From: Balanoglossus misakiensis
Lineage: Eukaryota > Animalia > Hemichordata
Assembly: GCA_040954595.2 (NCBI GenBank)
Contig: CM082594.2
Span: 11,226,276-11,290,275 of the forward strand
Reading direction: 5' to 3'
Length of the DNA: 64,000 nucleotides
The translations under genes and the position numbers were made by a program. This document shows positions 18,365-53,800 of this stretch, piece by piece. The notes under the pieces were generated by a model. It was given only the letters and a program-made list of their open reading frames with translations, had not been told where the DNA came from and made no database searches. Positions within the stretch are counted from its first letter, which is position 1; each line of letters starts with the position of its first letter.

Positions 18365-21300
18365 ACAATCGATCTGAAAAGAGCAATCAAGATCACTCTG
18401 CTCACATCTGAAAAGACCATAAATCGTCTTACAAACGTAGATAAAGTTATTCCTAAAGGGAAGATGGCGCGGATGTGCATTGAAATGCTTCGACGTCTTT
18501 GTTCGTTATGACTTTATTTTTATTCGCATATATGTCACAAGAACATGTTTCGTTATTAGTATGTGGAATCAAAAAGTATGTTTTACTCAAGCAATTCATG
18601 CTTCACAATTAATATCACTCAGGTGCGGGCACTTCCATTGATTTAGACAAGCTTTGTGTAAAATCTTTTCTTTCTGTAAATTTTAAGTACTGTATTTACC
18701 CAAAGAACGTCGCCCTGACTACATGAAAGTACTTGACCCTGGTTGAAGTTTCCTTCTCAGGCGATCGTCGACTCCAGCATGTCTGCCGTTCTCATAGTTA
18801 CCAATCTTTATTTTGGTAACAGGTTGAGTGGACTAATGGACTGAGTTACAGGATAACGCTCAATCATGACGGGGACCAACATTTCTCCCCCTTGGTACAT
18901 TTTTAACAACCAAAAAAGATTCCCCTGAAATGTTAGATGCAGCAAATAATAACAGCTCGATATGATCACAGCTGAAACCTAGGCTATTAAGTTAACATCA
19001 GATCTAGTTTAATCTATCCGTCCTAGTTATGTCCCTGTATTCTTATCATAAGCATATGGTTTTCGATTACATTGCTTACTCTCAATAGCATATTCGATTT
19101 TTAAATATCAACCATTTTATATGCAGAGACTGTGTGTTTCAGCAGCTGTGCGTTTGTCTCTAAGGCTTGAAAATATTCCTGCTTTCTGCACGCTATCATT
19201 CTGAAGAGGACAAAGTTCACAGATGCCTATCTTGATGAATATACAGGCCTATATCAGACATCTGTCGTTAAATCAAACTCGCATATGTGAGTTTTCTTAG
19301 GTAACGGTTGTCTGCCTCGTCAATGAAAGAAGTGGATGCCTTAATGCACTTTGTAGATTAAACGCTATTTGATTAAACTGTATTCCATTAGAACAGGTTG
19401 GCTTGGCAATGATGGAGGTTTAACAACATTTCAAGCTTTGCGTCACTGAAAGGAAACTCATTTCAAATTCAAGTCTTGCATTAGAAATAATTGTACTTCA
19501 ACACCCAAAATGTAAACATGAATCATGTTTATGGCTAAACCAGAATGTTTCTGTTATTATAATTATGCTTTCTTCTTATCTAAGCAATTGGTGGGTGGGT
19601 CGGGAGAACCTGGGGGAGGGGGGGAGGGTTCACACCTAACATGATAATTAGCTAAGAAGCTTCTGCTATGCAGGCTGCCTTCAGTTTTAGCCGACGCTTG
19701 AGAAGTTTTCTTAGAAATAGCAGAGTACACATGTATGTACTCGCGCGTTTGGCCAAAGAAGACTTGTGATTTTGACTGCGAACTACTCTTCACGTATTTC
19801 TCTGTTGGTTTATGATCCGAGTTTATGACCCGAGGAACAGAATGTTTTTCTTCTTTTCCTGCTTCCCCCAGGGAGTATTCCGAGGCTGAAGCACAATGGA
19901 AACTGTCACACACTGTTAACAGCGGAACGAAAACAGGGAAGAACAGTTGACTTTTCTTTGCTCTCATAGCAGATACTTTTCTATTTATAATAAAACCCCA
20001 TGGATTTTGTCTTGTAGGTAAAAAAACGAAAATAGTATCGAATTTCACCCCATCTGCCGTGTTGCAATTTGAGTTTAATGTTTGGTCATGATTTACTTTT
20101 AAGCACGCATTCTGAGTACGTCGACCTCCTTGCCAACGTCGGCGGATTGCCATGGTAACAGAAAGATAGGCAAGAAGTGAAGGTTTTATCCAGAAGTTTT
20201 GGAATAATTAGCGGTCATTTTCAAAGTATGCAAGTGGTAAATTATTGGAGTGTCAATCACTATGTGTAATAAGTACATTCTGACGTGAATGTCGTAATAA
20301 CTAATATTAGGGAGTGCTTAGTTATAACGAGAGAGGGTTGGAGGAATCTGGGTAGAGGGTCACATTTACAAACTTGTCTCCAATGTGACATCTAACATGT
20401 GGGCAGGATGGTTAAACTTTGTAATTTCAACAATATTTTGGAACATTTCTCGCAAAAACCATAGTGCCATTCTTACCAAATACACTGAGCTAACATGACT
20501 GCCATACTCCTTTCTCCAAAAAGATCATGGTGCCAGAACACTAAGTCGGTTCGGCGCGACAAGGAACGTTTATAAAATAACTAGGCTAAGAACATCAAAG
20601 AAGTCACCGCACTATAGATTCTAATTTCGTTTTAACATCTGATTCGGTTATTTAACAATTTGTCCAGTGTTTGAAAGCTTTTAACGGGGAACATAAATCC
20701 GAAAACCCCTTGAAATGCTCATGAATCAGTATTCCCTAGACGCCAAACCGGCGCATGGGGTTAACTCCAACACCGACACCAATAAATCTTGTCCCGGTTA
20801 ACTGCTTGAGTGACGTTAGAAATTTGTGTTGATCTACACCTGTTAACGGGTTTAAACCACGATGATGTCAAAGGACAATAAGCCACCATTTTTTAGTTTT
20901 TTAATCATTAGGTTTTATAGATGTATTGGTGTTTAATATACTTTTGAGCAGTTTAAGATTTTATTTCTATTAACTGGTATATATAGTATAGATGACAAAA
21001 ATTTGCATGCAGCAAAAATCGGAAAATACAAATGTTTAGCACATTTTAGGTTTATCCATTTTAAGTTTATCCAGTAAACTTAGAGAGTGGGTGGGGGGAG
21101 TGTTACTTGTATACTATGTGCTATGGTCATAATATCATTTCAAAGTTCAAAAAAATTATATCAGTTCTGCTGAATGTTAGGCCAACGCAAGTCCACCGGG
21201 TACATTAAAATTATATTTAATTTATATAAACCCCCAATTCAACCTTTTACAGAAATGAATGATCCAACACTTTCCAATATGCTGTAACCGTGATAGCGTA

Positions 21301-31849: not shown

Positions 31850-32122
31850 ATGCGCCAAGTAACAATGCTTCTGGCCGGCTTCTTTGCCGTGTGCCTGCTC
31901 GTACAGACCGTGAGTGGAACTGCAGCCAGGTCGGGGAAACTCCATTCATACCAGAACTCTGGATTCAGTATGTTCGGCAAGAGGACCCCAGATTACCCAG
32001 CTCCAGCGATGGAGATTGAAGAGCTGCTCACAAGATCTATTGGAAACCTCTTAAGCCTCAAGAAACTCTTCGACGACGTTATAAATGCAAACAGCATGCC
32101 AGAAAAAGATATTCAAGAATAA
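31850..32122 (+). CDS. Gene B: amidated neuropeptide precursor (SALMFamide/kisspeptin-like), 90 aa, single coding exon 31800-32127
   Basis: True ATG is at 31850 (CAAGATGC); the ORF track starts at an upstream TTG. MRQVTMLLAGFFAVCLLVQTVSG (signal) | TAARSGKLHSYQNSGFSMF-G-KR | acidic C-terminal pro-peptide TPDYPAPAMEIEELLTRSIGNLLSLKKLFDDVINANSMPEKDIQE. Flanked by an acceptor at 31798-99 and donor AAG|GTATTG at 32128. Confidence 0.92.
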   Translation: MRQVTMLLAGFFAVCLLVQTVSGTAARSGKLHSYQNSGFSMFGKRTPDYPAPAMEIEELLTRSIGNLLSLKKLFDDVINANSMPEKDIQE

Positions 32123-44537: not shown

Positions 44538-44541
44538 AGAG

Positions 44542-44592
<51 letters not shown>

Positions 44593-44604
44593 GGGGGTGG
44601 GGGT
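44538..44604. repeat. (GA)n microsatellite followed by a G-run
   Basis: More than 20 GA units, then ggtggggggggggtgggggtgg. Confidence 0.95.
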
Positions 44605-45102
44605 GGAGAAGAGATACAGACAGATGTTGAGTAAGTTGTTAATTAGCATTTGCACAATATGCTACAGTCTTGGTAATAACACTTCAACGACCAAAGAAGT
44701 TGTAGTTGGTGGATCCACGTGACTCTGGGCAGGACCCGCATCTAATTAACAGTCGTGGGATCCCACTGCTTACGACAGCAAATGTTGTTAGCGAATGAGG
44801 GAGAGGCACGAAGCTCTTATGCAGCACTCGGCATTAACAAAATACCCAGGAAGTTTACGGCTTAGCAGAAACAACTCCATTAAGTATCTCTACTTAAAGG
44901 CCTGAAACACCTGTGACCATTGAGACAGTTGTCATTTGGACTTGCGAGAGGGAACAGTACACGTATCGTGTGAGACGGAAAAGGAAGGAAACACAGGACT
45001 TAAAAAAAAGGACGTCTTGAGAAGATTACAAAATCGAAGTTCGTGTGAAAGAAGTGATAGTTTGGAAGACGGAATATCTTCCATTAAGTGACTTGGTTGA
45101 AG

Positions 45103-45115
45103 ATGGCTAAAACAG
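45103..45115 (+). CDS. Gene C coding exon 1 (MAKT plus 1 nt)
   Basis: GAAGATGG Kozak context; donor CAG|GTACGT at 45116; phase 1 matches the exon 2 frame (G+AC = Asp). Confidence 0.7.
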
Positions 45116-45317
45116 GTACGTACTTTAACAGGAATTTGACATTTTCGACGTTTCTCAAAACTTTGGCAAGGGCAGAACTTGCAATTAGCCTCCATGTAAA
45201 CGTCTTCACACATTTATACAAACCGGATACATATTTGCTATGTTCATGTAAAGACCAAATGTCATTTTAAAAATGTGGACACACTCCAATGTAATATTGT
45301 TCCATTTTCCCTGGCAG

Positions 45318-45566
45318 ACTGTCACCACATACTCCTGTTTATAGTGCTACAACTTATAATACTACATGCAGCTACGGCGTTTCTATACAGAAATCAAGTC
45401 ATACGACTGGGCAAGAAGTCCCCACCATACTCGTACCAACCAAAGAGCCCCTTTACTTTCTTCGACACCGATGGAGACGGACAATTATCACAAGACGAAT
45501 ATCAACGTGTCCCACAATTTAAACTCACGGCAATGTTAGATTCATTTCAGGATGCAGACCTAGACG
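45318..45566 (+). CDS. Gene C coding exon 2: signal peptide, candidate amidated decapeptide, EF-hand 1 and start of EF-hand 2
   Basis: Acceptor ccattttccctggcag|. Reads (D)CHHILLFIVLQLIILHAATA|FLYRNQVIRL-G-KK-SPPYSYQPKSPFTFF-DTDGDGQLSQDE-YQRVPQFKLTAMLDSFQDA-DLD(G). Donor G|GTATGT at 45567. Confidence 0.9.
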
Positions 45567-46194
45567 GTATGTGTTGTGTTTTTAATAATGATTTTCTTAC
45601 ACCATCTGGAAAAAAAACCCCAGCTCATTCTTATACCGGTACATTATATTGATATTTGAGGTCAGGGTATATAATTCATTTGCCTGCATGAAAAAAAGTT
45701 AAACTTGTTCATACTTTCTCTTAGAAGACAATCAATCAGTATGCGCATGTAGCTGCGGATACCAAAAGCACAAAGGAATATCTTGAAATATGTAACCAAC
45801 CCTGATCAATTTTGCCTGTTTGTAAATTTGATGGCACATCATTGTTCCACAGAATCATCGATCTTTTATTGATTTTCTGTACAGCTGCCTTATAGGTTAT
45901 TAAATCTGGTCTCTTCTATGCATCTCCGGAATAATCAATAGCAAGATTACTGTCACACTACAATGGGATATTAACATATGGCTTTAAAAGGTGCTCAGGT
46001 TGACAAAATTGATTCTCGAGGAAGCACTAGCGTTTAATCTTACGACAGCTATAACCCTGTATTAGATATTCTAAAGCAGAACCTTTGTTGAAAATTTTAT
46101 AGTACCTAATATACACCCACCATTTTTGAACCCACCTGTGTAGCCGAATGTGCCAGATTTCTCATTCTGAAAACTAAACATTCATAAGTTACTT

Positions 46195-46287
46195 TTAACC
46201 CTTTCAACCCCATTTCCCTGAATAGAGGACCGACTTCACCATAAAGAACAATGGGTTTGGACCAAACCATGGTGATGAAAGGGTTAA
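46195..46287. mobile_element. Short TTAA-flanked MITE (piggyBac-like termini), copy 1
   Basis: TTAA-CCCTTTCA...TGAAAGGG-TTAA terminal inverted repeats; homologous to the reverse complement of 50383-50472. Confidence 0.75.
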
Positions 46288-49200
46288 ATTGACATGATAG
46301 TAGGAAAGATTTATGTTTACATTCTGTCTTCATTGTGCTGACAATTTATTGTTCGGAATGACATGGCTTAAGACCCATTAGTAAAGATTTGCTGGGTAAG
46401 CGCTCTGACTCCTCGAAAGACACTTATAAGCGATAAATCACGGCATATTAACAAAATAATGGGGGTTCATTTGCAGAGAGAAGGATTCTGTGCTCTTTTC
46501 AATGATTTATGACTGTCCATTTTCATGTTTGTGGCAAAGGCATACCTACTCCACTTAAATCAAATCTTGATATTTCCACGACTTCAGAAATGGCACCCAT
46601 GGGAAGATGCAAGGCTGAACATTGAGACGCGATCATTTCAGTCTGAAAAGAACTTTCTGTAATTCGAATCGCTTCCTTCGTAAAGCATTAACTGTTTGAA
46701 CAATAAAGCAGCGCGGGGTAGGGCATGCCATGAGATTTTGACCACTTCAATACATGAACGCACGAGCGCTAGAAATGGTCAAAATTGGGAGGTCTACCGC
46801 TCTCTGGGTTGTTTTATTTGATGTTATATTTTACCAGTCTATTGAAACAGTGTATAAAGCACGTTTTCAAATAAATTTCGATAGTTTCCCAACTGATGTT
46901 CAAGCCCAGTTTTTGAGGCTTGAGAGCAAGGCAGTAAAGACGTCGGTGCTATGTTTTTTCCCTTCAAAATCTAGTCAACTACCACCGAGAAGTCATAATT
47001 ATATGCATACATAACTAATGAGCTGCTCTTACATTTAATAAACTAAACCGTTTGCGCGTACGAAATGTGATGACACAAGACACTGCATAAATGAAGTGCA
47101 AATTGAACAGATATCGTAAAATCGTAGGATTTGCCAGCTTTGTCTGAGCGGGTATGTCTCCGAATTTAATATCTGAGTTTCATTAATGTACAAATCGATT
47201 ACAAACAAAAAAGTTGAAAAATAAATGTTCTACACAGTGTCCAGACAAACAAGACAACTAAACGTTATTCACCATAAAACCTTCATGAGAGACGGTTGCC
47301 CTGCATGCAGTTTTAGAGTGCAGCAAAATGGGCATTTGTCATCAAATATAATTCCGCTAGGATGTGTGTGCATTTTCTCGGTGCCGACGATTAGGCGGAA
47401 AATAATCTTCGTGCGAAGAAACTGCTTTTAATAGATACTCGGTTTGACTTTTCCAAAACCCATAATGGCTAAAGACTCTCTCTCCAATATTTGAGGCTAT
47501 CCGTTCAGAACAAGACAATGGCACAACATAATAAATAAACAGGATAGGCTGTTTTTTGCGTTACTATTGGGAGGTAGCAACTCTGACCTTTGGCCTGAAT
47601 ACAAAAAGTAGCAATCTTTTGGATGGATCATAGTCACGCAAGGAAATGACTACGCGTCTTCGATAGGATGTGTTAGTACTGTGAAATGCATTGACATATT
47701 GACAGAAGGCAGGAAGAATACTGCCATCATTTTATCTTTTATGAAGACCATTGAAACATATCATAAACATAAGACATGAACGATAAAGATATCTATGAAA
47801 CGCATCATCAATTCCCTTCAAACGCTTCTCGACTTATATCATGGGTTTAGATGTGTTATTTTCATTGAGTAGTTCCCTAAATCATTAAAATTTGAATCAC
47901 ACAAGCCAACTGAAATAAATGTCAGGAATAGAACCACCACAAAACGATAGTTCAAAAAGGCATTACTTGGGATAAACGAGTTGTAAGCGACTTACAAAAC
48001 TTCATACCCATGCCTAAGCTTATAGATTCGTAACTCTTTCATAACCTCAACTATTGACAACCGCGACGTGTTAAGCGTGCCACCTCATATAACGCCAATG
48101 CTGTCGCTAAACCGTACATGAAGCAAACCCTCTCTGGTGAAATGCTTAAAATTCTGTCGATTTTTGCAGGCTACTTTGTGCTTATTTTTGTTTTGATCGC
48201 TTTAAAAGTCTTGTTGTCTGTGATAACAAAGTAATCACAGAGGCGTGAATTTACCATCTGGACACGAAAGGCTCTTTTAAAATGGCGTTAATGTTTCACA
48301 GATCACTGTAAATCATGAATAAGCATGCAGGGCTTGACGAGGTTAAACTTTGTCACTTTAAACTTTAACATGAGTCACGTGCAGTCAACATGGCTTACTT
48401 TGATATTTAGATAAATGAAATAAAGCAAATAATTGCACGTTGGCTGTTTTAGTTGCTTTTTGTATAATATACTGGACAACAATTGGTGAAAGCAATACAT
48501 ACAGGATAAATGTTCCATTCGTGAGTCCCAGTACGGCTAGCCTACCATCCAGAGCAACTCCATTAACAAACCACATTTCATATACAAATCTAACTTCTCC
48601 TCAAATCCCCAGGTGAACTGTGACTCCATGAATCACACATTACTTGTACACAAAATTTAACATTATGATTTACATGGTAACATACACTTATGGTTAACAG
48701 TCATATACCTTCCAGGAGAAACGTTAGTGCGTCATTAGAGAGCATGAATCAAATGACATCTTAGTTCTTTCGGCAGATCCGCAGGGATCTCTGTTTTTCC
48801 CTATCCTGTTTATTATAGACATAAACGATTCACCTATAAAACATACAACTATGTACCTGTCAGCTGACAATTCCAATTTCTCCAGACAAATTGAAGCTGA
48901 CTCTTCATGTTAGCAAATAAGGATGCTCAGAGTTAGGCACTGTTGCAAATTCCAGGAAATCAAACATGATCATCTAGTTCCTTTCATAGGTCTTGGAGAT
49001 CTGTACTAATCCATATCCTGCTGTTGAGTCAAAGAAGAATTCTGTTTCTGCCAGGCAAATTTTATGATAGTGACACATATAACAATATTTCTCTTAAGTG
49101 TATGTTCGAGCCCATAAGCTTGGGTAAGGGGGTATTCTGTCCTAAGTCCCAAAATAGGGCACGATAGTGTATAGTACGTTACACTGAACCTGTTACACCA

Positions 49201-50382
49201 AAACTATTATACAACTACTGACACCCTATTGTTTTATAATCACAGGCGAATATTGTAAAGTATGTCGCTGTGTACATTCTCTGTGGATTTTGTCTAATGA
49301 AAGCTATCGCTGTTAGCACTGACAGCTGCCTATCAACTTCAAAGTCAGATTATCCAGTCGGAATACAGCATACTTTCTTCTCCTTGTTTATCTTTAAAGG
49401 ATTGGTAGATACCTTACCCAGAAATGTGGATTGAAAACGAATTTCTAGGTTAAACCCATTTTCGACGGATAATGGCTAAAAAGAGATTGGATGGTACATC
49501 CCTACGATTTGTGCGTTTCCTCCATTTGTATCTTAGCTCAAATCCCATGTGAACCAAGGTCTCTGACATTTTCACCAAATTGCAGATATTGTGTTACTGC
49601 AGCAGTCAATAGTGAGTCCAATTTCACCATCCACTCTACATTGAAATATTTTATAATTGCTGTAGTAATCGTTTTATTTCGTTGCAAGTATACTGACCAT
49701 TTCCCAACTAAGCCATATAATGTACTGAATTTTCGTGTTCCAATAAACAGACCGCATAGTTGCCCCGACGGATTTTTTAGTTTTCACAGAAAGTGTTGTA
49801 GAACCATTAATAGACATCTTCCTGCTTGCCTCGTATTTTATTCAGTGCATTTGTCACATGCTTAGAAAGAGAATATCTCCTTGAAATGTATCGTCATGGT
49901 AACGAGTTAAAGCTCTCGAAGCTAGAATTGGCACATAAAATTGAGATGCCCTCTTCATTAATTAGCAAAGATGGGCAGATGTGTTTCTTTGTGAAACGTT
50001 TTATTATTCCTTTATAGCTTCATGCGAGTAAATCGTCGTGTCACGTTCTGCAGACTTTTTAAAGGAGTGTTAAACGGTCTAGAAGGAAGCCATTCACATA
50101 GCTCGCCTTGAGCGTCAACTTTGTAAAAACACAAGCGAGGAAGTGTGACAATATGCCAGTGTATTCCGCCAGTTATTATATTCACTTAGTTCACCCCTTC
50201 AATAAAGATTTACAATTACGTAATCTGAGCGCAGATTTTGTAGTTTCCAGTGTTAACATTTTATCACGTCTGTCTTTTGTGGTCAATTTGCAAGGCAGGA
50301 TGTTAAGATTTCAACTTAAACGGCGCATATGTACTAGGTGGGTATCATAATGAGAATTGAGCTCCAAGAAAAGCAGGAAACC

Positions 50383-50472
50383 TTAACTCTTTTACCACTA
50401 TGGTTCTTTCCAAACCCCTTGTTTTCTGTAAGCCTGGACATTTACACAGGGAACTGGGGATGAAAGGGTTAA
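50383..50472. mobile_element. Short TTAA-flanked MITE, copy 2 (opposite orientation)
   Basis: TTAA-CTCTTTTA...TGAAAGGG-TTAA; the internal atggtt...tccaaaccc.ttgtt...cagggaa.tgggg aligns with the reverse complement of copy 1. Confidence 0.75.
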
Positions 50473-50795
50473 CATAAGTCAATATTTAATATTAACCACA
50501 CTCTCTTGCCATCTCTTCTAATAAATACTGTTAAATATTCAAAGAGTCTTGCCACTTTCGCTAGTAATAAAGTAACACATAAGAGTGTCTTGTGTGAGGT
50601 TTAAAGGCACAGACTTAATATAACATAAGGTCTGAATATCGGGTTCTGCTACATTGTTATTTTAAAATTTACTAAAGTATGAAGCTTAACATAGATCACT
50701 GTTATATCATACTGGTATTTTCTGGTGATGTTTTAATAATTCTTACATGATTTTTAATTGAACGACTTTTTAACTTTGTTTCATTTCGATTACAG

Positions 50796-50887
50796 GTGAC
50801 GGACTTGTCAATACCTTGGAGTTCTTTTCAAAGATGGCCAAAGTTCGATACGCGGTGCAAGAGGACACGCAGAATATTTCCAGCTAG
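50796..50887 (+). CDS. Gene C coding exon 3: completes EF-hand 2
   Basis: Acceptor ctttgtttcatttcgattacag|. Phase 1 gives (G)DGLVNTLE-FFSKMAKVRYAVQEDTQNISS-stop, completing the loop DLDGDGLVNTLE. AATAAA at 50924-50929. Spliced CDS is 13+249+92=354 nt, 117 aa. Confidence 0.88.
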
Positions 50888-53800
50888 AAGTCACTGCATC
50901 GGGATTCAACGCGGGCCTCAGTGAATAAAGCATATCATCAAAGACAGTCAGACAAACCAACCAACAACCAAATCAATGCTTTTATGAGTTACTCAAAATG
51001 TTTCTTTTTCGCCATTATCCATTTTAAACACATGTACTTATTCAGTGTGAACAAAGACAGTGGGCATACTTTTGTAACTATTTTCTATCGTCACCATTTG
51101 GTGTCCATGGCTTAAAATTATAACACGCTCGCGTGAATCAGTGGTTGCGTGACCAAACAATTTTGAGACACAACTTGACAAGAAGACATGTCTTATAAAA
51201 CGTTTTGAGTTGCCTTATAAAAAATTTCCTTTGCCAACATATATATCTGTCGGGTTATGATACGTTCAGATCAGACTTTCATTTCCTAGAGCCACTTATT
51301 TTTCTCAGAGTTACTTATTTTGTGCTTTTCACATTTCAGTGCTATAACGAGACCCTATAAAGTGTTTTCCTGAAAAATAAAAACAGAGAACTCATCTTGT
51401 GATAACAGTGGCTCCTTTCCAGTGTCAGTCACCAACTAATACAAATCTGTTTGTGATACAAGCAAATTTTTTGTTCAAAAGTTTCCAGTTCAACTTAGTT
51501 TGTATGAAGCATAAAGACTTTAAGTTTGTTCTACATCCTTGAAATCCATCCACATTTTATGAACGACTGTCAGACAAATGGGCCGAATTTATATGCCTTA
51601 ATAATCTCCCAATGTATGTAAAATTTCTTGGCAATTAAGTTCAGAGAAGGGAGTTAGTATTTAGGTCTTAAGTGATGAAAGAATGAAGTAATCAAAATAA
51701 GCCGATGTGATTGGTGGGCATTTATTGATGGTGCAGGTAGTAAGCTTAGCACATATGGTACATCGATCTTTTACATATGAACAGAAATAATCTTGGGTGA
51801 TACACAGAAAGATGAAAACACAAATTACTACCGCAAATATCAAGAATATTCCCTTTTACACTTTATCATCAACTATATAAACACAAAATAAAATGCCACA
51901 GTACCGGCACTAGATTTCCCGCTTTGCAGATACAAAAATTAACCGTCCTAGATATCACTGTGTCACTACACCAGTCTTTCACGCTGCTTTATGTTCTGAA
52001 ATTATGGAAATCCAAATAAACTGAACTACACTACTTTGCACGCTCGATACTATATTACTGTATATACGATAGTCTTTGCGTAATATAGTTGTAACTATAT
52101 TTCAGTTTTATCAATATCCCGCCAAACGGAAACGGCGCATTGACGGTTTGCGTAGAATTGTTATAATTTGTCCACATACTGGTTAGATTGGTTTTCACAT
52201 GGAGTAGAACGATATTAACATCCTCATAAGCGAAAAACATAGATGAAGACTTTCGGATGTATCTTTCTGAGAGATGTATTTTAAGTATTCACCAAACTTT
52301 GACGGTTACAATAAACTGCACGTTGCATTACGAATTTTTTAACCAATCTGTCCACTGTGGTTGTTTGCTTGGTTGCTTAAGAGTACGACGTCACATATCT
52401 AGTGGCGGCCATTTAATCACGTGATCATGCATGATAATGGCTGATAGGGGCAAACACTGATTGAAAAATATACCAACAGGCTAAGACACACGGCAGATAG
52501 AGTTACATCGCTCGTGAGAATGTTTCACATAAACTTGAGCAAACATTTTAGATTTTGTGACATTTCCTTTAATCTTTGTTACAGAAATATTGAACTGTTT
52601 AGTTATTGTAAGACTTCCAAGATTCTTCAGAGATTCAATCAAATAAACGTGCCACTCTTAACAGCTGTTCGTTTTATGCCCACAAGATTTCCTGCAAGTG
52701 AATCTGCAAAATCTTGTAGCCTGCTAGTCCAATCTGCAAACAGACATAAGGTCTTCAAAGAAGGCATTTAGCTGCATTGTTCATCGCCTGGGGCTATAGA
52801 CAAACCTGCCTAATAAATGAGGTGGGCAGCCGAGCATTTTTGCAAAGGGATTATGAGATACCGTACATTGACGCCATCGATAATGACTGCATCGGTGCTA
52901 TGATTGAGTGTAAGGGTTTGGGGAAGAACATTTAAGAAAACAAACAAAATACAAAATCATTAACCCGGTTGTCAGGTGCGGTTCTCCTTGCCAACCAAAC
53001 TTTAACCATCTACATAAATTAAACCAGTACTGGTTTAGTAAAACAACAGTAAATTTATGATGCAGATTTTTATTCCAATCACAATTTATATAAAAAGTTC
53101 TGTCACAAAAGTCGTTGAAAATGTCATTAAAAAAATTCCTGCCGATGTCAAACTGGCACGGTTGACAATTATTATCATATTATAATCAAGGGCATATTGT
53201 GTCAAACATTGCAATTGTTCAATCATGTTTTCCTTAGAAAGATAAATGAAGGTACTGGGTGGCCCTGAATGAGAACTAAAGATCGACTGCTGTCCTACAA
53301 ACTCTGAACAAAATCGTCACCCCTGGCGAAAAGCGACCTTTTATGTTTCAACCAGATTAAAAGGGATTCACATGTTCTCGTACCATCGAATTAATTAAGT
53401 TCAATGATTCGCAGGAGAAAATGCTCTTAAGGATGGCGTAGCTGAATATACCATAATGAAAATAGATAGGGATATTGACTTAAATCCCCTCTTAATACAG
53501 GAAGCAAGGTTGTAAAGGAGAAGTCGTTGTGATATCGCTGCGTCATTAGGGACTGGAAAATATTGAGACTGTAGCCCGATTGGCAATGCATCAGTGTTTT
53601 CCTTGAAAAAAATGACGCACGCTAGCCATGGACAGTAATGATTATTTGCCCCCGGCTAAAGACGGCTATATTCCCTCTTCCCGTACTGACTATCGTGTCA
53701 AGCGCTTTCAAGTATATTAGATAATTGCCGAAAATATCAATGAACTACATGAAAGAAACGCTCCTCTGAAGAGACTACTGACAATATGGCGTCTTGTTGG

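What the first reader, a model, noticed from the sequence alone, without database searches (positions are those of the whole stretch)
45103..50887. Secreted precursor fusing a candidate amidated peptide (FLYRNQVIRL-amide) to a two-EF-hand calcium-binding module
Seen: 117 aa made of a 25-aa signal peptide (ending AATA), FLYRNQVIRL (45380-45409), G-KK, a Pro-rich linker, and two canonical 12-residue loops DTDGDGQLSQDE and DLDGDGLVNTLE. The second loop is only completed by splicing across a 5.2-kb phase-1 intron, which strongly supports the gene model. There is no KDEL/HDEL. Established: peptide-plus-EF-hand precursors exist (NUCB2/nesfatin; mussel mytimycin with an EF-hand C-terminal extension), and neurophysin shows that a co-encoded folded domain can chaperone its peptide. 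Inference: the EF-hand pair may be a Ca2+-dependent carrier or sorting domain for a short cationic RL-amide neuropeptide or defence peptide. Automated annotation would call this merely calmodulin-like. Caveat: KK is a less efficient convertase site than KR.
Basis: partly seen in the sequence, partly recalled or inferred. Interest (0 to 1): 0.82.

Follow-up and report, generated by a model that had tools for sequence, protein, structure and literature searches.

The report
Acorn worm ETH-like peptide with EF-hands
This acorn-worm gene encodes a small protein in which a predicted export signal, a strongly conserved ten-residue peptide and two calcium-binding-type EF-hand loops sit in a row; the peptide is likely cut out as an amidated nerve signal and may be the so far unidentified deuterostome counterpart of the insect moulting-trigger hormone.

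Summary
The gene is real: three exons, 117 aa, with full-length orthologues in three acorn-worm families (Ptychodera, Glandiceps, Saccoglossus), all annotated only as uncharacterised or kinase-like. It is most likely an amidated neuropeptide precursor (about 0.75). Peptide-plus-EF-loop is not new: allatotropin, MIP and NPF precursors in a published set carry one loop; an intact pair is the unusual part. The new point is family: the peptide resembles ETH/pleurin at both ends, sits directly behind the signal peptide, shares a late phase-1 intron with pleurin genes, and lies 13 kb from a second, unconfirmed precursor ending in S-M-F-amide, echoing the SIFamide-ETH gene pair seen in a mite. Hemichordate ETH-receptor candidates are published without a ligand. 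But the defining Pro of PRXamide is Ile, so it is not filed as a member (ETH/pleurin orthology about 0.45). Cleavage, calcium binding and the carrier idea are untested.

The parts
45103..45115 (+). coding exon 1 (first 4 codons + 1 base)
   Evidence: same N-terminus in P. flava orthologue
45116..45317 (+). intron 1, 202 bp, phase 1, inside the signal peptide region
45318..45566 (+). coding exon 2: rest of signal peptide, decapeptide, G-K-K, linker, EF-hand 1, start of EF loop 2
   Evidence: orthologues
45103..45379 (+). predicted signal peptide, residues 1-25, ending A-T-A
   Evidence: hydropathy peak about 3.2 then polar c-region in all 4 sequences; cleavage site inferred
45380..45409 (+). 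candidate amidated decapeptide FLYRNQVIRL (FLYKDQVIRL in Saccoglossus)
   Evidence: 8 of 10 positions invariant in 4 sequences
45410..45418 (+). G-K-K: predicted amide donor and dibasic cleavage site
   Evidence: invariant in 4 of 4; use in vivo untested
45419..45451 (+). variable linker, residues 39-49
   Evidence: 4 of 11 invariant, one-residue indel; low pLDDT in model
45464..45499 (+). EF-hand loop 1 (12 residues)
   Evidence: Pfam EF-hand_5 above cut-off
45567..50795 (+). intron 2, 5229 bp, phase 1, splitting EF loop 2; 50 residues after the dibasic site, 30 codons before the stop
45557..50821 (+). EF-hand loop 2 (spliced, residues 85-96)
   Evidence: two EF stretches in each orthologue
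50796..50887 (+). coding exon 3: end of loop 2, conserved basic helix (8 of 11 invariant at residues 98-108), stop
50924..50929 (+). AATAAA polyadenylation signal
31850..32122 (+). neighbouring single-exon ORF, 90 aa: predicted signal peptide, peptide ending NSGFSMF, G-K-R (31976-31984); candidate SIFamide/NPFF- or kisspeptin/SALMFamide-type precursor, unconfirmed
   Evidence: highest-GC 120-base stretch among 520 open frames; no homologue found

Best explanation
The gene encodes a 117-residue protein conserved across acorn worms that is predicted to enter the secretory pathway, where it is likely cut at Lys-Lys and amidated to release one ten-residue neuropeptide or hormone that would act on an ETH-type G-protein-coupled receptor. 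Shown: gene model, conservation, two canonical EF loops. Inferred: signal cleavage before Phe26, convertase cut at K-K, amidation from Gly36. Inferred with less support: that the peptide is a diverged ETH/pleurin orthologue (Pro replaced by Ile, hinge shortened). The acidic EF-hand pair is likely co-stored and co-released; the role I think most probable is calcium-dependent packing or sorting of the precursor in secretory granules, which is untested. The neuropeptide reading as a whole is about 0.75; the confidence given here is for the reading with the ETH/pleurin assignment.
For: Decapeptide + GKK 11 of 13 invariant vs 40 of 91 elsewhere (Fisher p=0.007) and 15 of 46 in non-EF parts (p=0.001); three families. 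PC2 and PAM are expressed in Saccoglossus (PMC10508912 section 12). Single-copy pleurins are signal + one peptide + G-[KR]R in 105-129-aa precursors (PMC8557429 text and supplement); a mite ETH has the same layout. Peptide ends match: ETH consensus FFLKASKNVPRIamide (PMC9853942), scallop pleurin IFYTNKEGNDFPRI, versus FLY[RK][ND]QVIRL; in mosquito ETH the N-terminal Phe/Lys and the C-terminus matter and the middle is a hinge (PMC9273798). Pleurin genes have one phase-1 intron 24, 26 and 29 residues before the stop (3 of the paper's 4 genes seen; counted by hand); here 30. Mite ETH and SIFamide have consecutive gene ids, tetur22g02000 and tetur22g02010; here the nearest recognisable upstream ORF ends its peptide in S-M-F-G-K-R, with no Pfam hit in 130 of 133 open frames of 40 aa or more between the two. 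The ETH-receptor data set of PMC6660194 lists 5 Saccoglossus and 3 Ptychodera sequences while the paper found no ETH ligand outside panarthropods. The snail pleurin gene HCS2 is titled as encoding 'an EF-hand motif region' (reference title only).
Against: The defining Pro of PRXamide is Ile in 4 of 4 sequences. The peptide is 10 aa against 12-15. None of the 9 pleurin precursors read shows an EF loop, and this gene has an extra intron in the signal region. No sequence search returned an ETH or pleurin; the language-model search ranked an unnamed mollusc cluster and allatotropin clusters first, at 0.85-0.86, lead level only, and gave nothing for the N-terminal half. Short-peptide likeness is cheap and was judged after the fact; the N-terminus also resembles slug FFFRPAPRG-type NMU peptides. 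Phase-1 introns are common. The neighbour has no found homologue, lacks the two C-terminal Cys of the SIFamide precursors seen and fits kisspeptin/SALMFamide features as well. I could not read the receptor tree topology (string cut), and the paper's text does not name hemichordates among ETH-receptor holders. K-K never drifts to K-R, which a structural role would also explain.
Confidence: 0.45

Rival explanations
1. An amidated neuropeptide precursor of another or lineage-specific family (for example NMU/pyrokinin-related, a diverged allatotropin/orexin paralogue that kept both EF loops, or a hemichordate invention); the ETH resemblance is coincidence.
For: Same processing evidence. 14 of 19 allatotropin precursors shown end in one EF-type loop (counted by eye; the other 5 stop short); allatotropin clusters rank 2-3. 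PRX motif not met. No orthologue outside hemichordates among 1878 candidates.
Against: Allatotropin peptides shown end in HG[FYN]-amide-type motifs and follow a spacer, unlike this peptide; a separate orexin gene is already described in Saccoglossus. Does not explain the intron match or the S-x-F-amide neighbour.
Confidence: 0.3
2. A secreted EF-hand protein that is not cleaved; the conserved segment is a structural or binding helix of the mature protein.
For: K-K-S is invariant rather than exchanging with K-R; both AlphaFold models run one helix through residues about 6-37; the C-terminal helix is as conserved as the peptide (8 of 11).
Against: The helix prediction includes the signal peptide and is expected for such a sequence; Gly directly before the dibasic pair, followed by a length-variable, low-confidence linker, is the prohormone signature.
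Confidence: 0.11
3. A mytimycin-like defence peptide precursor whose acidic EF-hand pro-region neutralises a cationic peptide.
For: Mytimycin has signal + peptide + dibasic site + anionic EF-hand extension (PMC8004829 passages); the C-part here is acidic (-1 to -5).
Against: Peptide has no Cys, side-chain charge +1 to +2, hydrophobic moment 0.22-0.29, is near-invariant across families, and one sequence per species was found, unlike variable multi-copy antimicrobial families.
Confidence: 0.07
4. An uncleaved membrane anchor with the basic segment and EF-hands facing the cytosol, acting as a membrane-bound calcium sensor.
For: A 19-residue window scores -1.4 to +0.6 kcal/mol on a crude, recalled insertion scale and is followed by basic residues, as the positive-inside rule would want.
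Against: Gln16 and His21 are invariant inside the hydrophobic stretch, the Saccoglossus c-region is polar, and small residues at -3/-1 are kept in 4 of 4.
Confidence: 0.05

Closest known systems
Pleurin / HCS2 precursors of molluscs, nemerteans, brachiopods (PMC8557429, PMC8398477)
   Same: Signal peptide directly followed by one amidated peptide starting with hydrophobic/aromatic residues and ending R-[IL]-amide; 105-130 aa; a phase-1 intron 24-30 residues before the stop; HCS2 reported with an EF-hand motif (title only)
   Different: Ile for Pro; 10 vs 14-15 aa; K-K vs R-R/K-R; intact EF-hand pair; extra intron in the signal region; no alignable pro-region
Arthropod ecdysis-triggering hormone (ETH)
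   Same: F-hydrophobic-hydrophobic-basic start and V-x-R-[IL]-amide end; peptide right after the signal; neighbour of an S-x-F-amide precursor (mite gene ids)
   Different: No PRX; two residues shorter; no EF-hands seen in the ETH precursors read; animal does not moult
Allatotropin/orexin precursors with the C-terminal conserved domain
   Same: Amidated peptide + dibasic site + C-terminal domain ending in an EF-type loop
   Different: One loop rather than two; unrelated peptide; peptide not directly after the signal
Mytimycin (Mytilus)
   Same: Signal + peptide + dibasic site + anionic EF-hand extension
   Different: Mytimycin is a 54-aa, 12-Cys antifungal peptide, variable and multi-copy
Nucleobindin/nesfatin (NUCB2)
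   Same: Peptide released from the N-terminus of a secreted EF-hand protein (recalled)
   Different: Much larger protein, long non-amidated peptide (recalled); not hit in any search here

Membership tests
Amidated neuropeptide precursor (general) | N-terminal cleavable signal peptide | tested here: met
   hydropathy and -3/-1 residues in 4 of 4; no dedicated predictor available
Amidated neuropeptide precursor (general) | Short peptide + Gly + dibasic site, conserved more than its flanks | tested here: met
   11 of 13 invariant vs 40 of 91
Amidated neuropeptide precursor (general) | Mature amidated peptide detected; neuronal or endocrine expression | not testable with these tools
   needs peptidomics and in situ data
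PRXamide (ETH/pleurin) | C-terminal Pro-Arg-X-amide | tested here: not met
   Ile-Arg-Leu in 4 of 4; therefore not filed as a member, only as ETH/pleurin-like
PRXamide (ETH/pleurin) | [quoted passage not shown] | tested here: met
PRXamide (ETH/pleurin) | Pleurin gene structure: one phase-1 intron in the C-terminal part | tested here: inconclusive
   intron 2 matches phase and rough position but an extra phase-1 intron is present and the flanks do not align; ETH gene introns not checked
PRXamide (ETH/pleurin) | Linkage to a SIFamide-type gene | tested here: inconclusive
   mite ids consecutive; identity of the window neighbour uncertain; linkage in other hemichordates could not be checked
PRXamide (ETH/pleurin) | Activates an ETH-type receptor | not testable with these tools
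   candidate receptors listed
EF-hand pair | Two 12-residue loops with D1, D/N3, D/N5, G6, hydrophobic 8, E12 in helix-loop-helix units | tested here: met
   both loops in 4 of 4; Pfam EF-hand_5 above cut-off with 2 stretches in 3 of 3 orthologues; model pLDDT 81.7, fold hits all EF-hand proteins but none at E<=0.001
EF-hand pair | Binds calcium | not testable with these tools
   inferred from motif
Allatotropin/orexin | Allatotropin-type peptide (HG[FY]-amide-type end in the spiralian sequences shown) | tested here: not met
Allatotropin/orexin | C-terminal conserved domain ending in an EF-type loop | tested here: inconclusive
   EF loop present; homology of the domain judged by eye only
Mytimycin | Cys-rich mature peptide | tested here: not met
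   no Cys in the peptide
SIFamide (neighbour gene 31850-32122) | N-G-S-I-F-amide end and C-terminal Cys pair | tested here: not met
   N-S-G-F-S-M-F-amide predicted; no Cys after G-K-R

The most novel reading that the evidence does not exclude
This is the missing deuterostome ligand of the ETH-type receptors, and with its S-M-F-amide neighbour it preserves a SIFamide-ETH gene pair inherited from the last common ancestor of bilaterians; the EF-hand pair would be an old calcium-binding pro-domain of which allatotropin, MIP, NPF and snail pleurin precursors keep one loop.
Probability: 0.28. Interest if true: 0.92.

Novelty: new variant of a known kind. Interest (0 to 1): 0.74.

Why it matters
ETH-type receptors are reported across bilaterians, but their ligand is established only in panarthropods (PMC6660194) and lophotrochozoan ETH receptors are still orphans (PMC8557429). 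A named decapeptide and named candidate receptors in Saccoglossus and Ptychodera make the origin of the moulting trigger in non-moulting animals testable with one cell assay. Even if the ETH link fails, this is an unannotated, deeply conserved hemichordate neuropeptide precursor that pipelines mislabel because of its EF-hands, which suggests that other short secreted 'EF-hand proteins' hide peptides.

Tried and rejected
No whole genome held, so paralogues and synteny elsewhere could not be checked. No RNA holder listed. The exhaustive HMMER search with exon 2 showed 150 of 592 hits: 1 orthologue, the rest long multi-EF proteins; short distant relatives may lie in the unseen 442. PDB sequence search gave calmodulin/centrin-type hits only. 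First AlphaFold run on 4 sequences was uninformative (pLDDT 57); the second used an alignment padded with 30 unrelated EF-hand proteins whose extra EF-hands misalign on the N-terminus, so it speaks only for the EF part. No complex prediction was run: the peptide is below the useful size. The neighbour is not a paralogue (hhalign probability 0.5%) and has no Pfam or database hit. Peptide strings and the Saccoglossus locus id in full text: 1 unrelated paper; 0 hits in the supplements of PMC6188537 and PMC8557429; searches showed no description of this precursor. Subscription papers (Mirabeau and Joly 2013; Bogdanov 1998) and most supplements were not available, so prior mention cannot be excluded. 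Rfam: 0 matches in the window. Pfam scan of 135 of 520 frames window-wide plus 97 more between the two genes found only the EF-hand exon.

Full report
Observation. The three-exon model is in the sequence as described: 45103-45115, 45318-45566 and 50796-50887, 117 aa, two phase-1 GT-AG introns of 202 and 5229 bp. Only 1 of 964 downstream AG sites completes a canonical second EF loop. The bare pattern of a hydrophobic stretch followed by Gly-basic-basic is not above chance (2 in the window, mean 1.0 in 40 simulated windows), but an EF loop is (1 against 0 in 40).

Orthologues. Searches returned three full-length orthologues: Ptychodera flava XP_070536172.1 (117 aa, 100 of 117 identical), Glandiceps talaboti XP_077993093.1 and Saccoglossus kowalevskii XP_002735340.1, from three enteropneust families. 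The window is therefore from an acorn worm close to Ptychodera. They are named 'uncharacterized' or 'calcium-dependent protein kinase 2-like'. The other 136 of 139 hits (117 of them listed) begin at E 2.6e-8 and those listed are generic EF-hand proteins covering mostly the C-terminal half; no echinoderm or amphioxus orthologue was listed, within the limits of a word-seeded search of 46-205-aa proteins.

Conservation pattern. In 4 sequences the decapeptide plus G-K-K has 11 of 13 invariant positions against 40 of 91 elsewhere (p=0.007) and 15 of 46 in the non-EF parts (p=0.001); the signal has 5 of 21, the linker 4 of 11 with an indel, the final helix 8 of 11. Both EF loops are canonical in all four, pass Pfam's cut-off and fold as helix-loop-helix units in a model built on a padded alignment (pLDDT 81.7; fold hits are EF-hand proteins, none at E<=0.001). 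This is what a prohormone looks like: a conserved short peptide starting at the predicted signal cleavage site, Gly, two basic residues, then a free linker. PC2 and PAM are expressed in Saccoglossus (PMC10508912, section 12 read). G-K-K-S sites separate copies in nemertean FMRFamide precursors (PMC8557429 supplement passages), which softens the K-K caveat. Cleavage and amidation remain inferred.

The architecture is not new. In the same supplement 14 of 19 allatotropin precursors shown end in one EF-type loop (by eye), as do two nemertean MIP fragments and one brachiopod NPF. Mytimycin has an EF-hand extension after a dibasic site, of unknown function (PMC8004829 passages). [quoted passage not shown] What is unusual here is an intact, conserved pair. 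A language-model search likewise placed the protein between neuropeptide precursors and EF-hand proteins, at lead level only.

Which family. Four independent but individually weak lines point to ETH/pleurin. (a) Layout: single-copy pleurins and a mite ETH have one peptide directly behind the signal. (b) Peptide ends: FLY[RK][ND]QVIRL against ETH FFLKASKNVPRI (PMC9853942 passage) and pleurins such as IFYTNKEGNDFPRI and VFYTKSDDNDYPRI; mosquito ETH needs its N-terminal Phe/Lys and C-terminus, with a hinge between (PMC9273798 passages). (c) Intron: pleurin genes have one phase-1 intron 24, 26 and 29 residues before the stop and 37-66 residues after the dibasic site (3 of 4 genes seen, hand counts); here 30 and 50. 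(d) Neighbourhood: an earlier AI note (e1-9316920) claimed an old SIFamide-ETH pairing in arthropods; I could check it in one species only, where published headers give the mite ETH and SIFamide consecutive gene ids. In the window a second precursor-like ORF lies 13 kb upstream on the same strand (31850-32122), with a predicted peptide ending N-S-G-F-S-M-F before G-K-R, and 130 of 133 open frames of 40 aa or more between the two were scanned without a Pfam hit. The receptor side is open: PMC6660194 (passages and supplement file 2) found no ETH ligand outside panarthropods, and its ETH-receptor tree files list 5 Saccoglossus and 3 Ptychodera sequences; the tree string was cut, so I did not see their position, and the text does not name hemichordates.

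Against. The Pro that defines PRXamides is Ile in 4 of 4, so the peptide is not filed as a member. It is shorter, none of 9 pleurin precursors read has an EF loop, there is an extra intron, and no search returned ETH or pleurin. The likeness was judged after the fact on ten residues; NMU-type slug peptides share the N-terminal pattern (PMC7749107 passages). The neighbour is unconfirmed: no homologue, pattern within chance, though it has a Met-led signal and the highest GC of 520 frames. It lacks the SIFamide Cys pair and fits the Gly-X-X-Phe-amide and Asn-Ser features listed for echinoderm kisspeptin-type and SALMFamide peptides (PMC9400282 section 7 and passages), whose hemichordate ligands that paper calls unidentified.

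Mechanism and odds. Export, cut at Lys-Lys, trimming, amidation, release of one decapeptide acting on a GPCR: about 0.75. Of that, ETH/pleurin-type 0.45 and another or lineage-specific family 0.30. Uncleaved secreted EF-hand protein 0.11, defence peptide 0.07 (charge +1 to +2, no Cys, near-invariant), cytosol-facing membrane anchor 0.05.

Print status. The peptide strings and the Saccoglossus locus id gave one unrelated paper in the held full texts and nothing in two supplements; searches showed no description. Also consulted as passages only: PMC5627052, PMC5818035, PMC5860471, PMC6188537, PMC4772807, bioRxiv 10.64898/2026.07.28.741146. Subscription papers and unseen supplements may list the precursor.

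Verdict. A real, conserved and apparently undescribed hemichordate neuropeptide precursor; a new variant of a known kind, with a near-even chance of being the missing deuterostome ETH-type ligand, which one receptor assay can decide.

Noticed in passing
window 31850-32122 (+): Single-exon 90-aa ORF with predicted signal peptide and a peptide ending NSGFSMF before G-K-R; candidate hemichordate SIFamide/NPFF- or kisspeptin/SALMFamide-type precursor; acceptor-like site just upstream (about 31799); no database homologue, no Pfam hit, string not in print in the searches run.
   Followed up: partly
window 50822-50854 (+): The basic helix after EF loop 2 (residues 97-107) is nearly as conserved as the peptide (8 of 11 invariant); it may be the exit helix plus a binding surface.
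   Followed up: no
published supplement of PMC8557429: EF-type loops end many allatotropin precursors, two MIP fragments and one brachiopod NPF precursor; the main text of that paper has no occurrence of 'EF-hand'.
   Followed up: partly
window 19566-20207 (-): 214-codon stop-free frame, the longest in the window; no Pfam hit, no gene-like features seen.
   Followed up: partly
window 44538-44605: GA microsatellite followed by a G-rich run about 500 bp upstream of the start codon.
   Followed up: no
window 1-64000: Gene-poor: apart from the two peptide-precursor-like genes no Pfam or Rfam match in the frames scanned (232 frames).
   Followed up: partly
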